DNA from: Candidatus Latescibacterota bacterium
GTDB lineage: Bacteria; Latescibacterota; UBA2968; UBA8231
Reading direction: 5' to 3'
Length of the DNA stretch: 64,000 nt
Assembly (NCBI GenBank): GCA_965203175.1
Contig: OZ241867.1
Coordinates: 1 to 64,000, forward strand
Shown in pieces: positions 58,853-64,000 of the stretch. Made by a program: the position numbers and the translations under genes. Position 1 is the first letter of the stretch; each line of letters starts with the position of its first letter. The notes under the pieces were generated by a model. It saw nothing but the letters and a program-made list of their open reading frames with translations. It made no database searches and had not been told where the DNA came from.

Positions 58853-60328
58853 CTATTCCCCCCGAATTGAATTGTGCGGATAGACCCGCTCCCACCCCGC
58901 CGCACCGAACACCTTATTGGCCCACAGAGGGCCACTTTCAGAAGCGTCCACCAAATTGTAGTCGTGCGAGGATTGCACGGAGCGCATGACCTCGCGCCAG
59001 AGTACAGCGTCTAAATGGCGGTATGTAGCCGCGTGCGACGCGGATTCGGCGAGATTGTGCTCTTCTTGGGAATCTTCCTGCAAATCGAAAAGCCCGGTCG
59101 CGCCATTGCCGTACTTCACTAGCTTGTGCCGCCCGTCGTAAGCCATCCAGCCGGATTGCAGGCCGCCGACTAGCATGTCGCGCGGAGAATCTCCGGCCAA
59201 GCCCAAGCCGGGTAGCGGTCTAGCGTCCATGTACTCCGGCACGCCGTGGCCAGACGCGGCTAGCAGGGTAGCAGTGACGTCCGTGAGGCAAACCAAATCG
59301 TCGCGCACCGCACCGGCAGCACCGCCCGGCTGACGCACCATCATGGGCACGTGGCAGCTACCTTCATAGAAGTTGCCCTTGGCGTTTACACCGTGATCCC
59401 CGACCAAGTCGCCGTGGTCTGAAGAGAAGATGACGAGGGTGTTGTCGAGACGGCCGCTTTCCTCCAAGGCCGCGAGGATTTGGCCGACCTCGTGGTCTAT
59501 CTGCAAGATGAGGGCCGAATAGTGGGCGCGCACCGTGCGCTTCTGTTCCTCGGTGTAGGGACCTTCGGTCTCTGGAGTCCATATCGGCGCACCCGGCCGA
59601 GGCCGAGGGTGGATGCCCTCGCGGACATCGCGGTGGATCGGGTCGCCGGGGGCGGGATCGGGAATTTTATCGACATCTACTTTAGCCAGAAATTCCGGCG
59701 TGGGGTCGTAGGGGTCGTGCGGGCCGGGGAAACCCACCATGCAGGCGAAGGGCCGCTCGTCGTCGTACTCGCGGATGAAGCGCGCCGCCTCCTCGCCGAC
59801 GAAGTAATCCCAGTAGCAATCCCAAGGCAAAAGCGACACGCAAGCGCCGCGCTGCTCGTCGTATCCTTCGTGCTCCTTGCCCATGTACTTGCGGTGACCG
59901 CGCTGTTGCAAATAGTGCCAGTAGTCGTCTTGGATGTTGACCCACACCTTGTCCTCGCAGGCGATGCGATGTTGGAAGCCAAAAGAGGCTTCCCACGGGT
60001 AGAAGTGCATCTTGCCAATGGCCGAGGTGAGGTAGCCGTGATCGGTCAACATCTCCGCCCAAGTGCGGATGCCACACGCAGCGTGGTCCGGTCGCAGATG
60101 GTTGCCGTTGGTCAGCACATGGTTGCGCCAGGCGTTGAGGCCAGTCAGCAGCGAACAACGCGCCGGTACGCAGACCGGATGCAAGCTGTAGGCTTGATCG
60201 TAGCGGATGCCCTCGGCGGCAATCCGGTCGATGTTGGGGGTGGAAATGTGGGGGGCACCATAACAACTGAGAAAGTCGTGGCGCATCTGGTCGGGCATGA
60301 TGAACAACAAATTGGGTCGGTCGCTCAT
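58853..60328 (-). CDS. Sulfatase (Cys-type)
   Basis: PNLLFIMPDQ, CVPARCSLLTG, GKMH, PHDP, SDHG. Confidence 0.93.
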   Translation of the reverse strand: MSDRPNLLFIMPDQMRHDFLSCYGAPHISTPNIDRIAAEGIRYDQAYSLHPVCVPARCSLLTGLNAWRNHVLTNGNHLRPDHAACGIRTWAEMLTDHGYLTSAIGKMHFYPWEASFGFQHRIACEDKVWVNIQDDYWHYLQQRGHRKYMGKEHEGYDEQRGACVSLLPWDCYWDYFVGEEAARFIREYDDERPFACMVGFPGPHDPYDPTPEFLAKVDVDKIPDPAPGDPIHRDVREGIHPRPRPGAPIWTPETEGPYTEEQKRTVRAHYSALILQIDHEVGQILAALEESGRLDNTLVIFSSDHGDLVGDHGVNAKGNFYEGSCHVPMMVRQPGGAAGAVRDDLVCLTDVTATLLAASGHGVPEYMDARPLPGLGLAGDSPRDMLVGGLQSGWMAYDGRHKLVKYGNGATGLFDLQEDSQEEHNLAESASHAATYRHLDAVLWREVMRSVQSSHDYNLVDASESGPLWANKVFGAAGWERVYPHNSIRGE

Positions 60329-60415: not shown

Positions 60416-61810
60416 TCATACAACGCTGAGGGCGCGGACCAACCGCTTGAACAGGTCGCCGCGCTCGGCGTAACTGGCAAACTGATCGAAGCTAGCGCAG
60501 GCCGGCGAAAGCAGCACCACGTCGCCAGATTGCGCTAGGTGGCGAGCGGTGTCCAAGGCTTTGGGTAGGTCGTGGCAATAGTGGACGATTGCGCTAGCGC
60601 CTACCTGTCGTAAAGCAGCGGCGATGCGCGGGGCTTCTTGACCGATGAGCAACGCAGCGCGGACATTGGCCTCGGCAATAGCAGTGCCCAAGGCGCTGAA
60701 GTCGGCCCCTTTTGAAGCGCCACCCGCAATCAGCAATAGGGGTGCATCAAAGGCTTGAATAGCAGCACAGGCAGCATCGACCGTCGTGGCCAGTGAATCG
60801 TTGCAATAGGTAACGCCGTCGCGCTCGGCAACGTATTCGAGACGGTGGGGAAGGCCTTCAAAGGTACGGAGGGCCTCGGCGAAATGGATCGCTGGCGCAC
60901 CAAAAGCCAACGCACCGGCTACGGCAGCAGCGACATTGCTCCAGTTGTGTTGGCCCCGGAGGGGAATGTCGGCCACCGGACAAACGGCGATTGGCTGCGC
61001 CCCAGGACAACAGGCCCACAACTGGCCGTCGGCAATCCACGCGCCCGGAATGCTCGGAGTGGTTGTGCTAAAGGACCAAAGGGCAGCTGGACTCTCGTCA
61101 GCAAAGGTTCGAGCCGTAGTACAGTCCCGATTGACAATGAGGATATCGCCAGGCGTTTGGTAGCGGCACACGGGCTTTTTGGCATCGACGTATTCGGCGC
61201 GGTTGGCGTGGTAGTCGAGGTGGTCCTCGGTGACTGAAAGAACCACGGCGATGTGAGGGCTTTGGTCGAGGTCTTGCAATTGGAAGCTAGACAGCTCTAG
61301 TACAACCCGGTCGGTCGCCTGCAACTCGTCAATGAATTCGAGCGGCGGCCGGCCGATGTTGCCGCCGCTGAACACCCGTGCCGACGGATCGGTTTCCAGC
61401 AAGGCGTGCAGCAGCGCGGTCGTAGTGCCCTTGCCCTTGGTGCCAGTAATGCCGAGCACCGGCGCGGGACATAGCTGTAAAAAGAGGCGCGTCTGGCTCG
61501 ATACTTCGACGCCGCAACACTGCGCCGCACACAGGCGCGGGTCCAGCGTCGGCAGACCTGGCGTGCGAAACAGTAAGTCGAAGTCGGTCAGGTCGTCGAG
61601 ATAGCCTTCGCCGATGCGCCATTGTTGCACGCCCTCCACTGGCGTGGCCGGGTCGCGGACGTCGCACACGGCAAAGGGAATCTGGCGCGCGTGGAGAAAG
61701 TGGGCCAGCGCGCGGTTTTCCACGCCGAGGCCGAGCAGGGCAATGCGCCGCTGGTGCAGATGTTGGGTCGCGCTTGACTCTTTGGGGCTGGAGGATTTCT
61801 TTAGCGCCAT
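60416..61810 (-). CDS. murD: UDP-N-acetylmuramoyl-L-alanine--D-glutamate ligase
   Basis: GITGTKGKGTT, ELSSFQL, DHLDYH, HRLE, LLSPACASFDQF..YAERG. Confidence 0.95.
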   Translation of the reverse strand: MALKKSSSPKESSATQHLHQRRIALLGLGVENRALAHFLHARQIPFAVCDVRDPATPVEGVQQWRIGEGYLDDLTDFDLLFRTPGLPTLDPRLCAAQCCGVEVSSQTRLFLQLCPAPVLGITGTKGKGTTTALLHALLETDPSARVFSGGNIGRPPLEFIDELQATDRVVLELSSFQLQDLDQSPHIAVVLSVTEDHLDYHANRAEYVDAKKPVCRYQTPGDILIVNRDCTTARTFADESPAALWSFSTTTPSIPGAWIADGQLWACCPGAQPIAVCPVADIPLRGQHNWSNVAAAVAGALAFGAPAIHFAEALRTFEGLPHRLEYVAERDGVTYCNDSLATTVDAACAAIQAFDAPLLLIAGGASKGADFSALGTAIAEANVRAALLIGQEAPRIAAALRQVGASAIVHYCHDLPKALDTARHLAQSGDVVLLSPACASFDQFASYAERGDLFKRLVRALSVV

Positions 61811-61858
61811 TGAAATCGCAATACGCGCTTTAATTAAATTAGATAGTGAGAAGGTGCT

Positions 61859-62236
61859 GTGGCTGTAACAATTATGCGTACGGTGCGGCCTAGTCCGCAA
61901 TGGCAAGACAGCTTGATCCGGCTAGAGAGCGGCCAGCGGGTCGTCATCGATGCCGAGGAAACTTGGTCGCCGGACATGCAAAACCAAATCGCTTGGTGCG
62001 GCGCCGATGGCGTGTACAATCTGCCTGCAGGCTCGGGCTACCTACTGCCGGGGGCCAATGTCGGCGCACTCGTGGCCCGCATTGGCGACGACGGGCCGAT
62101 CTTTGCCGTGGGCAGCCGCTGCGACTTTATCGCCGATGGCGCCGGCCTCCTAAATTTGGCCATGAACGAAAACCCGAGCTTCAACAACCAAGCCGGCAAA
62201 ATCGTCGCCCAAATCATCGTCTTTAGCCGACCATGA
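61859..62236 (+). CDS. Small beta-sandwich protein resembling PA-IL/LecA-like carbohydrate-binding domains
   Basis: WQDSLIRL..GQ.V.I.A...W, GALVARIG, LNLAMNE; no signal peptide. Confidence 0.6.
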   Translation: MAVTIMRTVRPSPQWQDSLIRLESGQRVVIDAEETWSPDMQNQIAWCGADGVYNLPAGSGYLLPGANVGALVARIGDDGPIFAVGSRCDFIADGAGLLNLAMNENPSFNNQAGKIVAQIIVFSRP

Positions 62237-63270
62237 GCCTCGCCGGCAGCGCGGCGACCGCAGCCTATGTGCGCGCGGGTCATCCACCTGTCCGCGCGAT
62301 CGCTCCGCTCGCCGAAGGGGTCTGGCGCATCGAGGACGCAGACGGCCGCAAGGTCGTGGTCAAACATCAGCTCTTCGGCCGGCTGACGCAGGGCACGGCT
62401 TACGACCTGTTGGAGGTCGAGCGCGACGTGCTCGGCTTCTTGCACAGAGCGGGTTGTCCGGTGCCCGCCGTCCTCGGCGTGGACTCAGACGACCAATGCA
62501 TCTTCTTGCAATGGGTCGGCGATCACACCCTCGACGACGCCATTCAGGACGGGGACCGGGCGGCGACTATACAGGCCATACGCGGCCTGTGCGCCATTGA
62601 GAACACGTGCGCCCAACGCGCCGACCAGCTAGAGCCGAGAGTAGTGCCGAGTGCCAACCGCGCAGCCCTCGCCGCCGCTTGGGACGAGGCGGGAACGCGA
62701 GCGCATACTGGCATCGAACAGCTATGCAGCCGTCTCCAGCAGCCCTTGGAGGCTGGGATGCAACCACTGCTCGAAACCATGCACGATTGGCTAGCGGCGC
62801 GACCAGCCGCGCTGGGCAGCGTAGATTACAACGCGCGCAACGCAATTGTCGAGCCGGGGGGTACGCGCGTTTACTTCCTCGAATTTGCCAAAATTGGTTG
62901 GGACTGGACGGAACGGCGCTTGACGCAGTATACTTCAAGTATGGGCAGCGGCCGACAAGACGGGCGCATGCGCTCGCTACTGGACGCGTCCGCAGCGCGT
63001 TTGTACGCCGAGGAATCCGGGCGCAGCGACGGTGCGCGGGCGCTCGATTATCACCGTATCTTTTTTCTTTTAAACAGCGCGGCCCTGTTGTGCGCGGCCC
63101 TCGACGGCGAGCCGCACGCGCTGGCCCTGCGCCAACACTGGAAAAGGCCCCATGCGCGGCTGCGACAATGCGCGGCCATGCTGGCCCAAAGCCTGAGCAC
63201 AGACCCAAGCGCGGCCGAGTTCAGAAGCCGGTTGCAGTTTTGTTTGTCACCACGCGGAGGTACTCTATGA
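62233..63270 (+). CDS. APH/choline-kinase-like phosphotransferase
   Basis: KVVVK, E..VL..L....PVPAVL, DYNARN catalytic loop, FLEF in place of DF; ATGA overlaps on both sides. Confidence 0.7.
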   Translation: MSLAGSAATAAYVRAGHPPVRAIAPLAEGVWRIEDADGRKVVVKHQLFGRLTQGTAYDLLEVERDVLGFLHRAGCPVPAVLGVDSDDQCIFLQWVGDHTLDDAIQDGDRAATIQAIRGLCAIENTCAQRADQLEPRVVPSANRAALAAAWDEAGTRAHTGIEQLCSRLQQPLEAGMQPLLETMHDWLAARPAALGSVDYNARNAIVEPGGTRVYFLEFAKIGWDWTERRLTQYTSSMGSGRQDGRMRSLLDASAARLYAEESGRSDGARALDYHRIFFLLNSAALLCAALDGEPHALALRQHWKRPHARLRQCAAMLAQSLSTDPSAAEFRSRLQFCLSPRGGTL

Positions 63271-63533
63271 GCGAGTGGAACACTCTCGACTTCAAGCCCC
63301 GAGCCCGGGGCATGATCATCGGCGATATTCCCTGGCTGGCGCGCATAGCCGACAAGGCGCGGGCGCACCAGCAGCAACGCATCGGCGACTACGTATTCCC
63401 CTGACCGGCTGACCAGCGCTTCCTGGAGGAAGTGGAGCTAACAGCCGCAGCATTCGAGGAGATGGTAGCCTCGTCCGCAGACGACGATGCACTAATCGAA
63501 AAGATGAAAGCGCATCTAACTAGAAAGCGCTAG
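63267..63533 (+). CDS. Probable selenoprotein, DUF5069-like (88 aa, Sec46)
   Basis: GGAGG RBS; WLARIADKARA...IGDYVFP-TGA(63402)-PADQRFL... open to TAG 63533, 1 nt before next ATG; SECIS-like hairpin. Confidence 0.82.
63407..63446 (+). promoter_or_regulatory. Candidate bacterial SECIS element
   Basis: GGCTG/CAGCC, AGC/GCT and GCTTCC/GGAAGT stems with UGGA apical loop 19 nt after the UGA. Confidence 0.72.
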
Positions 63534-63534
63534 T

Positions 63535-64000
63535 ATGAGCACCTCAGCGCAAACAACGCGCACGCCAAGGCGGAGAGTGCGGGAGATGGAGGTGGAGATC
63601 GTCCACGTGCGCCGCGACACCCCAGACACCACTACGCTCTTTATGTCGGCTGGCGACGAGCCGATCGAATACGAGGCCGGCCACTTCTGCACCATTGATC
63701 CGCATCAGTTCGGCGAGTTGGAGCACTTCACCGCCTATTTAGAAGATCAAAAGGGGCAGCGGGAAAAGCCGCGGGCCTATTCTATGGCCTCGGCACCGCA
63801 CGAAGAGCACCTCGCCATCACCATCAAAGAAGAGCGCTATGAGAGCGGTGAGACGCCGTACCCACCGCTGCTATCGCCGCTGTTGACGTACTACATCCAC
63901 GAGGGCCGGCGGCTGGTCATCAGCGGTTTTACCGGGGCATATACCTTTCCCGCCGATGTCTGCGAGCGCGCCGAGCACATTGTCCACGTATGCGCTGGAA
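63535..64000 (+). CDS. FNR-type FAD/NAD(P) oxidoreductase, 3'-truncated by window edge
   Basis: My translation: TPDTTTL, YEAGHF, RAYSMASAP (RxYS FAD motif), GFTGAY, HVCAG; absent from the ORF track because it runs off the window. Confidence 0.85.
   Translation, partial: MSTSAQTTRTPRRRVREMEVEIVHVRRDTPDTTTLFMSAGDEPIEYEAGHFCTIDPHQFGELEHFTAYLEDQKGQREKPRAYSMASAPHEEHLAITIKEERYESGETPYPPLLSPLLTYYIHEGRRLVISGFTGAYTFPADVCERAEHIVHVCAG

What the first reader, a model, noticed from the sequence alone, without database searches (positions are those of the whole stretch)
63267..63533. DUF5069-like protein with selenocysteine at its conserved Cys: possible new selenoprotein family
Seen: MSEWNTLDFKPRARGMIIGDIPWLARIADKARAHQQQRIGDYVFP-UGA-PADQRFLEEVELTAAAFEEMVASSADDDALIEKMKAHLTRKR. 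As I recall it, the DUF5069 pattern is PR...L.R..DKARA...G.Y...CP.D..FL, which puts the UGA exactly on the Cys. A three-tier hairpin with a UGGA loop 19 nt downstream fits the bacterial SECIS model. Inference: Sec marks this residue as the catalytic redox or metal site of a non-thioredoxin domain of unknown function. I do not know this family as an established selenoprotein, but cannot check the literature.
Basis: partly seen in the sequence, partly recalled or inferred. Interest (0 to 1): 0.85.

Follow-up and report, generated by a model that had tools for sequence, protein, structure and literature searches.

The report
Unlisted selenoprotein family: short DUF5069
A small gene of unknown function carries a stop codon that is almost certainly read as selenocysteine, and the same arrangement is kept in most genomes of two little-known bacterial phyla, so it looks like a selenium-containing protein family missing from current catalogues.

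Summary
Window 63267-63533 (+) encodes an 88-residue protein with one in-frame TGA (63402-63404). It matches Pfam DUF5069, and the TGA aligns with the Cys of PDB 3OMD.

Selenocysteine decoding is strongly supported:
- 58 of 59 full-length database homologues have Cys at that column.
- The TGA form occurs in 104 of 119 matching genomes of the window's phylum. Its DNA signature occurs in 133 of 151 sampled Poribacteria genomes.
- The genome has selA, selB, tRNA-Sec and a Sec-containing selD.
- A 6-7 bp hairpin with a UGGA loop, 19 nt after the UGA, meets all four published bacterial SECIS criteria. It shows compensatory changes (G-C 44 / C-G 37) and frozen synonymous sites, and it decays in Cys forms.
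- Three genomes that hold the gene but show no selA all carry Cys.

Neither DUF5069 nor PF16798 appears in any searchable paper or in a 2026 table of 119 prokaryotic selenoprotein families. No NCBIfam model matches.

Function is still inferred. The fold is a four-helix fold, not thioredoxin-like, with Sec at the start of helix 2. In this bacterial family the gene is tightly linked to an APH-like kinase and an FNR-like reductase.

Verdict: a real, apparently undescribed selenoprotein family of ordinary mechanism.

The parts
62233..63270 (+). Upstream gene for a 345-residue APH/choline-kinase-like small-molecule phosphotransferase. Its TGA stop overlaps the ATG of the selenoprotein gene.
   Evidence: ORF. 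No Pfam hit and only weak APH/Bud32 NCBIfam hits. Invariant K44, D198, N203 with near-invariant E63 and D224 across 50 homologues. AF2 model pLDDT 94.9. Foldseek gives 308 PDB matches at E<=0.001, topped by corramycin and aminoglycoside phosphotransferases. It lies directly upstream of the DUF5069 gene in most loci examined from family f1, in both Sec and Cys forms.
63256..63260 (+). Shine-Dalgarno GGAGG, 6 nt before the ATG.
   Evidence: Read directly from the sequence.
63267..63533 (+). Gene for an 88-residue short-form DUF5069 selenoprotein (stop TAG 63531-63533).
63402..63404 (+). UGA codon 46, read as selenocysteine.
   Evidence: Aligned with the invariant Cys of homologues. Kept as TGA in 241 of the 256 regex-matched genes among 261 loci scanned; these loci are redundant between collections. 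In 104 of 119 matching genomes of the phylum the match holds one TGA.
63417..63434 (+). Bacterial SECIS core: 7-bp upper stem (63417-63423 with 63428-63434) and apical loop UGGA (63424-63427).
63406..63447 (+). Outer (lower) stem 63406-63411 with 63442-63447, enclosing the SECIS core. It is only partly conserved.
   Evidence: Predicted in the window. Paired in 65.6% of cells across 81 sequences, against 92.8% for the upper stem.
63535..64000 (+). Downstream gene for a 295-residue FNR-like flavoprotein reductase. It starts 1 nt after the selenoprotein stop and runs past the window end to about G000 position 64422.
   Evidence: Pfam NAD_binding_1, E=2.7e-14. Source names include oxidoreductase and ferredoxin-NADP reductase. 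It overlaps or abuts the DUF5069 gene in several genera of family f1, in both Sec and Cys forms.

Best explanation
The gene encodes an 88-residue cytoplasmic selenoprotein of the short, Cys-type branch of DUF5069.

Decoding. UGA 63402-63404 is decoded as selenocysteine by the genome's SelA/SelB/tRNA-Sec/SelD system. A canonical in-frame bacterial SECIS hairpin directs this. Its core is 63417-63434, with a UGGA loop 19 nt after the UGA, the class of element that SelB is known to bind.

Placement. Sec46 replaces the invariant Cys of the family. In the predicted model it sits immediately before the N-terminus of helix 2 of a four-helix fold shared with PDB 3OMD.

Function (inferred, not shown). 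Sec46 is the reactive nucleophile or redox centre of a single-Cys/Sec active site, surrounded in sequence by invariant Arg, Lys and Asp residues. In this bacterial family the protein may work with the translationally coupled FNR-like NAD(P)H flavoreductase and the APH-like kinase encoded on either side.
For: Sec machinery in the same genome:
- tRNA-Sec scores 70 bits, and ARAGORN calls it tRNA-SeC with anticodon tca.
- selD scores 376 bits and has its own in-frame TGA.
- selA scores 566 bits and selB 329 bits.
- TGA is otherwise the commonest stop: 20 of 37 long ORFs in the window.

Cys/Sec pairing:
- 58 of 59 full-length database homologues have Cys at the column.
- The Cys of 3OMD aligns with it.

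Spread of the TGA form:
- 119 of 168 genomes of the phylum match at E<=1e-10. Of these, 104 have one TGA inside the match and 15 have none.
- All 24 Poribacteria loci found by protein search carry TGA.
- The DNA signature occurs once in 133 of 151 sampled Poribacteria genomes, and 0 times for the reversed control pattern.

SECIS element:
- 81 of 81 distinct Sec-form sequences from protein-based searches form the hairpin with an invariant UGGA loop.
- Pair 18-31 is G-C in 44 and C-G in 37, with none unpaired. Pair 17-32 is AU 30, GU 26, UA 18, GC 6, other 1.
- 92.8% of cells are paired against 77.6% in shuffles (0 of 500 reach the observed value). Slid controls reach 68% at most.
- All four criteria of the published bSECIS model are met (criteria quoted; values).

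RNA-level constraint:
- Within the genus, only 1 of 7 third codon positions varies inside the hairpin. That compares with 19 of 22 elsewhere downstream and 37 of 45 upstream.
- The 12-mer TTCCTGGAGGAA is found in 123 of 127 Sec loci but only 1 of 15 Cys loci.
- Two Cys forms nested inside a Sec genus differ from their Sec neighbours by a single base each in or next to the stem.

Link to the machinery:
- 102 of 104 TGA-form genomes have selA. The two without are 80-81% complete.
- The three genomes that hold the gene, show no selA and are 86-93% complete all carry Cys.

Translation continues past the TGA. The frame stays open and the protein is conserved after it, with 17 of 36 residues identical between the window and a Poribacteria copy.

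Fold. The AF2 model has pLDDT 85.6 with helix 2 spanning residues 47-55. The only clear structural match is 3OMD, with VIA Z 11.4 and Foldseek TMq 0.76.
Against: - No direct evidence of selenium incorporation exists.
- The hairpin folded alone is only marginally better than shuffles: z=-1.89, and 12 of 200 fold as well. An earlier 69-nt fold gave z=-0.70.
- The two fully compensatory pairs separate largely by clade, so the number of independent events is small, and relatedness inflates the shuffle statistics.
- The seventh (outermost) pair is unpaired in 40 of 81 sequences, and the lower stem is paired in only 65.6% of cells.
- Rfam has no matching family.
- The proposed partnership is weakly supported. 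The kinase and FNR neighbours are limited to one bacterial family and are absent from the other three families and from Poribacteria.
- The Cys is not universal in DUF5069. Repeat-type paralogues lack it.
Confidence: 0.88

Rival explanations
1. The TGA is a true stop. The locus is a truncated gene or pseudogene, or two small ORFs (45 residues, plus a 33-residue ORF starting at GTG 63432).
For: Under table 11 the frame does end at 63404, and a 33-residue ORF begins at 63432. Gene callers produced truncated products such as P0062 (49 residues).
Against: The same TGA, the same frame and a conserved downstream peptide occur in 241 of the 256 regex-matched genes among 261 loci scanned, with no extra stop. 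They are present in 104 of 119 matching genomes of the phylum and in the signature scan of 133 of 151 Poribacteria genomes. The residues between the TGA and the GTG (PADQRFLEE) are conserved as protein. Homologues are single 88-92-residue proteins with Cys at that column.
Confidence: 0.02
2. The UGA is read through, but not as selenocysteine. A near-cognate tRNA would insert Trp, Cys or Arg, and the hairpin would act only as a read-through stimulator.
For: No experiment distinguishes Sec from another residue. One database product carries W at the column (P0059).
Against: The column is Cys in all other homologues, which is the known signature of Sec/Cys exchange. The hairpin fits the SelB-type bSECIS model in loop content and spacing. 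102 of 104 TGA-form genomes have selA, and genomes that hold the gene but show no selA carry Cys. TGA is the main stop codon in the window.
Confidence: 0.05
3. It is a genuine selenoprotein, but the family has already been described under another name, for example one of the older metagenomic 'hypothetical protein' families, or in a database or supplement that I could not read.
For: Older papers named several families only as hypothetical proteins (listing, review Table 1). Supplements were closed. The family table of BSepDB is a supplement.
Against: Full-text searches for 'DUF5069' and 'PF16798' return 0 papers. The 2026 review table of 119 families and subfamilies, each with a domain accession, lists neither. 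The renamed metagenomic families there carry NCBIfam accessions, and the protein hits no NCBIfam model at E<=0.01. Searches combining selenoprotein or selenocysteine with Poribacteria, Latescibacter or sponge found nothing relevant.
Confidence: 0.15

Closest known systems
PDB 3OMD, an uncharacterised protein from Leptospirillum rubarum (DUF5069, PF16798)
   Same: Sequence match at E=2e-7 over residues 11-77, with its Cys aligned to the window's Sec. Same fold: VIA Z 11.4, rmsd 2.4 over 83 residues; Foldseek TMq 0.76.
   Different: 3OMD is 145 residues, has Cys and includes the C-terminal third of the domain. The window protein stops at profile position 80 of 133 and has Sec. Neither has a known function.
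Computationally predicted bacterial selenoprotein families with Cys homologues and an in-frame bSECIS, such as the DUF-type families in Table 1 of the 2026 review PMC13188914 (DUF3179, DUF1573, DUF523, DUF1858)
   Same: Same kind of evidence and the same decoding mechanism: a Cys/Sec pair, TGA-containing orthologues in Sec-utilising bacteria, and a bSECIS hairpin within 16-37 nt.
   Different: The domain (PF16798) is not in that table. It has a single Sec in a P-U-[PGA]-x-D context rather than UxxC or CxxU. It is near-universal in two candidate phyla.
Thioredoxin-fold redox selenoproteins (Trx, Grx, Prx, GPx, SelW-like)
   Same: The Sec lies immediately before the N-terminus of a helix. From recalled knowledge, the active Cys/Sec of thioredoxin-fold enzymes sits in a similar position. 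The proposed role is likewise redox or nucleophilic.
   Different: There is no CxxC-type motif, and the model is an all-helical fold with only a short beta-hairpin. No thioredoxin-fold chain appeared in either structure search, which is inconclusive as a negative.
Repeat-type DUF5069 proteins, such as the 454-residue triple-domain ORF at G000 566032-567393
   Same: Same Pfam domain, E down to 2.9e-28. The R..DK.RA...G.Y core is shared.
   Different: These are full-length domains in tandem, with YG[DE][DN]S..D in place of the P-C/U-P-x-D segment. They have no Cys or Sec there and no TGA.

Membership tests
Pfam DUF5069 (PF16798) | HMM score above the curated gathering threshold | tested here: met
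   51.5 bits against a cut-off of 27, E=1.5e-13. 50.4 bits in the six-frame genome scan.
Pfam DUF5069 (PF16798) | Covers the whole 133-position domain | tested here: not met
   Only profile positions 4-80 are matched. The protein ends at residue 88. Homologues of the same length form their own short clade.
Pfam DUF5069 (PF16798) | Shares the fold of the family's solved member, 3OMD | tested here: met
   VIA Z 11.4 (the next row is 3.8) and Foldseek TMq 0.76, rmsd 1.8. The model has pLDDT 85.6.
Bacterial selenoprotein (SelB/SECIS-dependent) | In-frame UGA aligned with a conserved Cys in homologues | tested here: met
   58 of 59 homologues have Cys. The 3OMD Cys aligns with it. 15 Cys-form genomic orthologues were found.
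Bacterial selenoprotein (SelB/SECIS-dependent) | bSECIS model: loop of 3-9 nt, upper stem of 4-16 bp, G in the first two loop positions, 16-37 nt from UGA to loop, MFE <= -7.5 kcal/mol | tested here: met
   The criteria are quoted from PMC13188914, Fig. 2 legend. The window has loop UGGA, a 7-bp stem and 19-nt spacing, with -9.4 kcal/mol for the 30-nt core and -19.1 for 48 nt. In some other lineages the core alone gives only -6.3 to -6.6 kcal/mol.
Bacterial selenoprotein (SelB/SECIS-dependent) | selA, selB, selC and selD present in the genome | tested here: met
   Across the phylum, 102 of 104 TGA-form genomes have selA.
Bacterial selenoprotein (SelB/SECIS-dependent) | UGA-containing orthologues in other Sec-utilising organisms, with a conserved hairpin | tested here: met
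Bacterial selenoprotein (SelB/SECIS-dependent) | Selenium shown in the protein (75Se labelling or mass spectrometry) | not testable with these tools
   Contigs from metatranscriptome libraries span the TGA, but that shows neither translation nor selenium.
Any of the 119 catalogued prokaryotic selenoprotein families or subfamilies | Matches the family's domain model or accession | tested here: not met
   PF16798 is not among the accessions in Table 1. No NCBIfam model hits at E<=0.01. Supplements and BSepDB itself were not readable.
Thioredoxin-fold redox selenoproteins | CxxU, UxxC or UxxS/T motif on a thioredoxin fold | tested here: inconclusive
   The motif is absent; the local sequence is FP-U-PAD. 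The helical model found no thioredoxin-fold match, but absence from a fold search is not decisive.

The most novel reading that the evidence does not exclude
Short DUF5069 proteins are a new class of single-Sec enzyme on a non-thioredoxin fold. The gene is close to a core gene of Poribacteria and of one Latescibacterota class. Under this reading the selenolate acts on an anionic or phosphorylated small molecule, and in some lineages it is recycled by a dedicated FNR-like NAD(P)H reductase with help from an APH-like kinase. That would give a function to a structurally solved but orphan domain family.
Probability: 0.18. Interest if true: 0.75.

Novelty: new member of a known kind. Interest (0 to 1): 0.6.

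Why it matters
**Catalogue and annotation.** If confirmed, this adds a family to the prokaryotic selenoproteome that current catalogues and annotation models appear to miss. As a result the gene is mis-called in public data: truncated at the TGA, frame-shifted, or given Trp.

**A handle on an orphan domain.** The Sec pinpoints the functional residue of a domain of unknown function that already has a crystal structure (3OMD). That makes a long-orphan family directly testable.

**Selenium dependence of uncultured phyla.** The gene is present in most genomes of two largely uncultured phyla. Holders of the window stretch are labelled sponge or marine metagenomes, and some relatives' record titles point to a freshwater lake and the deep ocean. 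This suggests a selenium requirement built into their core physiology.

Tried and rejected
- **Complex prediction.** I folded a natural Cys-form DUF5069 with its adjacent FNR-like protein. The score was 0.00, which the tool reports as no verdict, so it counts neither for nor against binding.
- **Search for longer or fused DUF5069 forms.** Using a natural Cys homologue, none scored. This is weak evidence only.
- **ESM Atlas.** It returned only other short DUF5069 clusters, with no functional lead.
- **Rfam scan of 63200-63600.** No relevant family.
- **Wide structure search.** Nothing stood above noise apart from 3OMD; the next Z was 3.8, from TetR-like helices.
- **Paper search for '3OMD'.** It returned only unrelated uses of the abbreviation.
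- **Pfam search over the Poribacteria phylum.** Repeat-type paralogues filled the listing, so the Sec-form rows were not shown. I replaced it with the DNA-signature count.
- **A lost resolving Cys.** I considered that Sec forms had lost a second Cys near residue 69. I dropped the idea because several Sec forms keep a Cys there, for example the SECKLD, ASCTTD and SCADDD contexts.
- **Shared SECIS with selD.** The selD hairpin of the same genome has a different sequence, which is usual for bacterial SECIS elements.
- **Gene neighbourhood outside family f1.** There was no common partner. Neighbours were a CfrBI-type restriction-modification pair, PheA/QueG, and a Gfo/Idh/MocA oxidoreductase.
- **Expression.** Contigs from four metatranscriptome libraries (two studies) cover close relatives of the gene and bridge the TGA (X16 record 9 and X15 record 1). 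DNA carry-over cannot be excluded, so this is only compatible with transcription.
Full report
**1. The observation**

The only in-frame stop is TGA at 63402-63404 (codon 46), and the gene ends at TAG 63531-63533.

A GGAGG lies 6 nt before the ATG. The ATG overlaps the TGA stop of the upstream ORF as ATGA.

With C for U the protein matches Pfam DUF5069 (PF16798): E=1.5e-13, 51.5 bits against a cut-off of 27, profile positions 4-80 of 133. No NCBIfam model matches.

The genome does not read TGA as sense in general. Of 37 long ORFs in the window, 20 end in TGA.

**2. The organism and its selenocysteine machinery**

The window lies in a single-contig 6.58-Mb genome. Its closest relatives are public MAGs mostly titled Candidatus Latescibacterota. 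The best holders of the stretch among sequencing runs are labelled sponge or marine metagenomes.

The genome carries the full machinery:
- tRNA-Sec: 70 bits, and ARAGORN calls it tRNA-SeC with anticodon tca.
- selD: 376 bits, with its own in-frame TGA in the GG-U-ASK loop.
- selA: 566 bits.
- selB: 329 bits.

**3. The UGA sits on a Cys column**

A search of 5.8 billion proteins returned 59 full-length homologues of 81-121 residues. Of these, 58 have Cys at the column and one (P0059) has W. Two further hits are products cut or frame-shifted at the TGA.

The one solved relative is PDB 3OMD, an uncharacterised protein from Leptospirillum rubarum. It aligns its Cys (YNCPLDQ) with the window's FPUPADQ.

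The Cys is a subfamily feature, not a property of all DUF5069 domains. Tandem-repeat paralogues, including a 454-residue triple-domain ORF in this genome, have YG[DE][DN]S..D there instead.

**4. The UGA is widespread**

Within the window's phylum:
- A six-frame search of all 168 species genomes held found a match at E<=1e-10 in 119.
- 104 of these have exactly one TGA inside the match, and 15 have none.
- All matches fall in one class (families f1-f4), and none fall in the ten other families.
- In the window's genus, 28 of 30 other species match. The two without are 87% and 58% complete.

Beyond the phylum:
- A protein-based scan of 185,579 species genomes added 24 loci titled Candidatus Poribacteria, all with TGA.
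- Of those 119, 116 encode the protein and 3 are chance matches.
- The same signature occurs exactly once in 133 of 151 sampled genomes of the Poribacteria phylum. The reversed control pattern occurs 0 times.

Over all 261 loci fetched (redundant between collections), a motif scan found 241 TGA, 10 TGC and 5 TGT at the column. The frame was open to a common C-terminus.

**5. The hairpin behaves as a SECIS**

I took only loci found by protein similarity, so they were not selected for the hairpin. This gave 81 distinct 48-nt stretches starting at the TGA, which align without gaps.

Conservation and covariation:
- All 81 form the stem at columns 17-22 with 27-32 around an invariant UGGA loop.
- Pair 18-31 is G-C in 44 and C-G in 37, with none unpaired.
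- Pair 17-32 is A-U 30, G-U 26, U-A 18, G-C 6, other 1.
- The three rarer changes in the core are G-U wobbles.
- The outermost pair, 16-33, is paired in only 41 of 81.
- Overall 92.8% of cells pair, against 77.6% in shuffles (0 of 500 reach the observed value) and at most 68% when partners are slid.
- The clades are related, so the shuffles overstate significance. The fully compensatory pair may reflect very few events.

Independent support comes from synonymous sites:
- Within the genus (29 loci), only 1 of 7 third codon positions varies inside the hairpin codons.
- Elsewhere, 19 of 22 vary downstream and 37 of 45 vary upstream.
- TTCCTGGAGGAA is kept in 123 of 127 Sec loci but only 1 of 15 Cys loci.
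- Most Cys forms have lost the hairpin. Two Cys forms nested in a Sec genus each differ by one base in or next to the stem. One Cys form keeps the stem but has a UACA loop.

The element meets all four criteria of the published bacterial SECIS model, which I read in the Fig. 2 legend of PMC13188914:
- Loop of 3-9 nt: here 4 nt.
- Stem of 4-16 bp: here 6-7 bp.
- G within the first two loop positions: here UGGA.
- 16-37 nt between UGA and loop: here 19 nt.
- MFE <= -7.5 kcal/mol: here -9.4 for the core and -19.1 for 48 nt.

Two points weaken the structural picture:
- Folded alone, the element is not significantly more stable than shuffles.

**6. Link to the machinery across genomes**

selA is found in 131 of 168 genomes of the phylum. 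Crossing this:
- 102 of 104 TGA-form genomes have selA. The two without are 80-81% complete and highly fragmented.
- Of the 15 Cys-form genomes, 12 have selA and 3 do not. Those three include both species of one genus and one of another, and are 86-93% complete.
- So every reasonably complete genome that keeps the gene but shows no selA has Cys.

A quick maximum-likelihood tree of 105 sequences needs about 6 Sec/Cys changes, of which at least 2 are forced by well-supported branches. This fits the repeated Sec/Cys exchange typical of real selenoproteins. The tree has few columns and no reliable root.

**7. Structure and context**

An AlphaFold2 model built from 44 sequences has pLDDT 85.6 and pTM 0.75. 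It shows a short beta-hairpin and four helices (24-35, 47-55, 60-68, 73-87), so Sec46 lies immediately before the N-terminus of helix 2.

Only 3OMD matches clearly, with Foldseek TMq 0.76 and VIA Z 11.4 against 3.8 for the next chain. The fold is therefore family-specific and not thioredoxin-like.

Residues invariant across 44 sequences, numbered as in the window protein, include K10, P11, R12, R14, W23, R26, D29, K30, R32, Y42, P45, C/U46 and D49. This charged set is compatible with binding an anionic ligand. That reading is inference only, because I could not inspect coordinates.

Neighbouring genes:
- Upstream: a 345-residue protein with no Pfam hit. It keeps kinase-type invariant residues. 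Its confident model (pLDDT 94.9) matches corramycin, aminoglycoside and macrolide phosphotransferases, with 308 PDB matches at E<=0.001. Only 167 cluster representatives exist among 1.84 billion proteins.
- Downstream: an FNR-like reductase that starts 1 nt after the stop (NAD_binding_1; source names). A family-2-like glycosyltransferase ORF follows.

The kinase lies directly upstream in most genera of family f1, and the reductase overlaps or abuts the gene in several of them. This holds for Sec and Cys forms alike. Neither neighbour is present in families f2-f4 or in Poribacteria, where the surroundings differ. The proposed partnership is therefore a lineage-level lead, not a property of the whole family.

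**8. Literature**

- Full-text searches for 'DUF5069' and 'PF16798' found no paper.
- I read Table 1 of the 2026 review PMC13188914 in full. It lists 119 families and subfamilies with domain accessions, and neither DUF5069 nor PF16798 is among them.
- I read passages of the deep-Sep paper PMC12013277. Its nine new families do not include it.
- I read passages of the BSepDB paper PMC13326102. It compiles previously reported families, and its text contains no 'DUF' term.
- Searches pairing selenoprotein or selenocysteine with Poribacteria, Latescibacter or sponge symbionts gave nothing relevant; I saw listings only.
- Supplementary tables and the databases themselves could not be consulted, so prior description under another name cannot be excluded.

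**9. Verdict**

The gene is almost certainly a genuine selenoprotein decoded by the ordinary bacterial mechanism. It represents a family that the accessible literature and annotation models do not list.

Its distinguishing features:
- It is close to a core gene of Poribacteria and of one Latescibacterota class.
- It has a non-thioredoxin fold with a solved Cys homologue.
- Its SECIS is unusually invariant.

What the Sec does chemically is unknown. A single-Sec nucleophile or redox centre is the most likely reading. A link to the adjacent FNR-like reductase is possible in this lineage but unsupported beyond gene order.

Noticed in passing
G000:C1:391045-391968 (outside the window; locus L014): The genome's selD is itself a selenoprotein gene. 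It has an in-frame TGA at genome position 391075 in the GG-U-ASK loop, followed by GC-rich hairpins whose sequence differs from the DUF5069 element.
   Followed up: partly
G000:C1:566032-567393 (outside the window; locus L001): A 454-residue ORF made of three tandem full-length DUF5069 domains that lack the Cys (YG[DE][DN]S..D instead). Similar two- to three-domain proteins occur in nearly all sampled Poribacteria genomes; 146 of 151 have a DUF5069 match.
   Followed up: partly
window 62233-63270 (+): The upstream gene belongs to a very small, Pfam-less family of APH/choline-kinase-fold phosphotransferases, with 167 cluster representatives among 1.84 billion. It is conserved next to the DUF5069 gene across one bacterial family. 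Its substrate is unknown.
   Followed up: yes
Proteins P0059, P0061 and P0062: Public gene calls for the Sec form are wrong in three ways: W at the TGA (P0059, a cluster of 54 members), truncation at the TGA (P0062), and a frame-shifted continuation (P0061).
   Followed up: partly
Tree (loci L106-L129 against L028-L077 and L249-L288): The Poribacteria sequences form one tight clade. It groups with Latescibacterota family f1 rather than outside all Latescibacterota, across a split with 99% support. This hints at transfer between two phyla that are both labelled as sponge-associated. The tree is unrooted with few columns, so this is not tested.
   Followed up: no
L071:3348-5749 (-), same-class genus g8: In several g8 genomes a CfrBI-type restriction endonuclease and a DNA methylase lie directly upstream of the selenoprotein gene. 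A Cys-form relative (L062) lacks this pair. This looks like an inserted restriction-modification cassette.
   Followed up: no
Record titles (for example L079, L097, L182, L201): Contigs carrying near-identical copies of this locus are titled Latescibacterota, Gemmatimonadetes, Alphaproteobacteria or Planctomycetota in the public records. The NCBI labels for this lineage are therefore inconsistent.
   Followed up: partly
window 58853-60328 (-) and 60416-61906 (-): A 491-residue ORF whose sequence looks like a sulfatase, and a 496-residue ORF that looks like MurD, lie just upstream of the operon. I judged both from the translations alone and did not search either.
   Followed up: no
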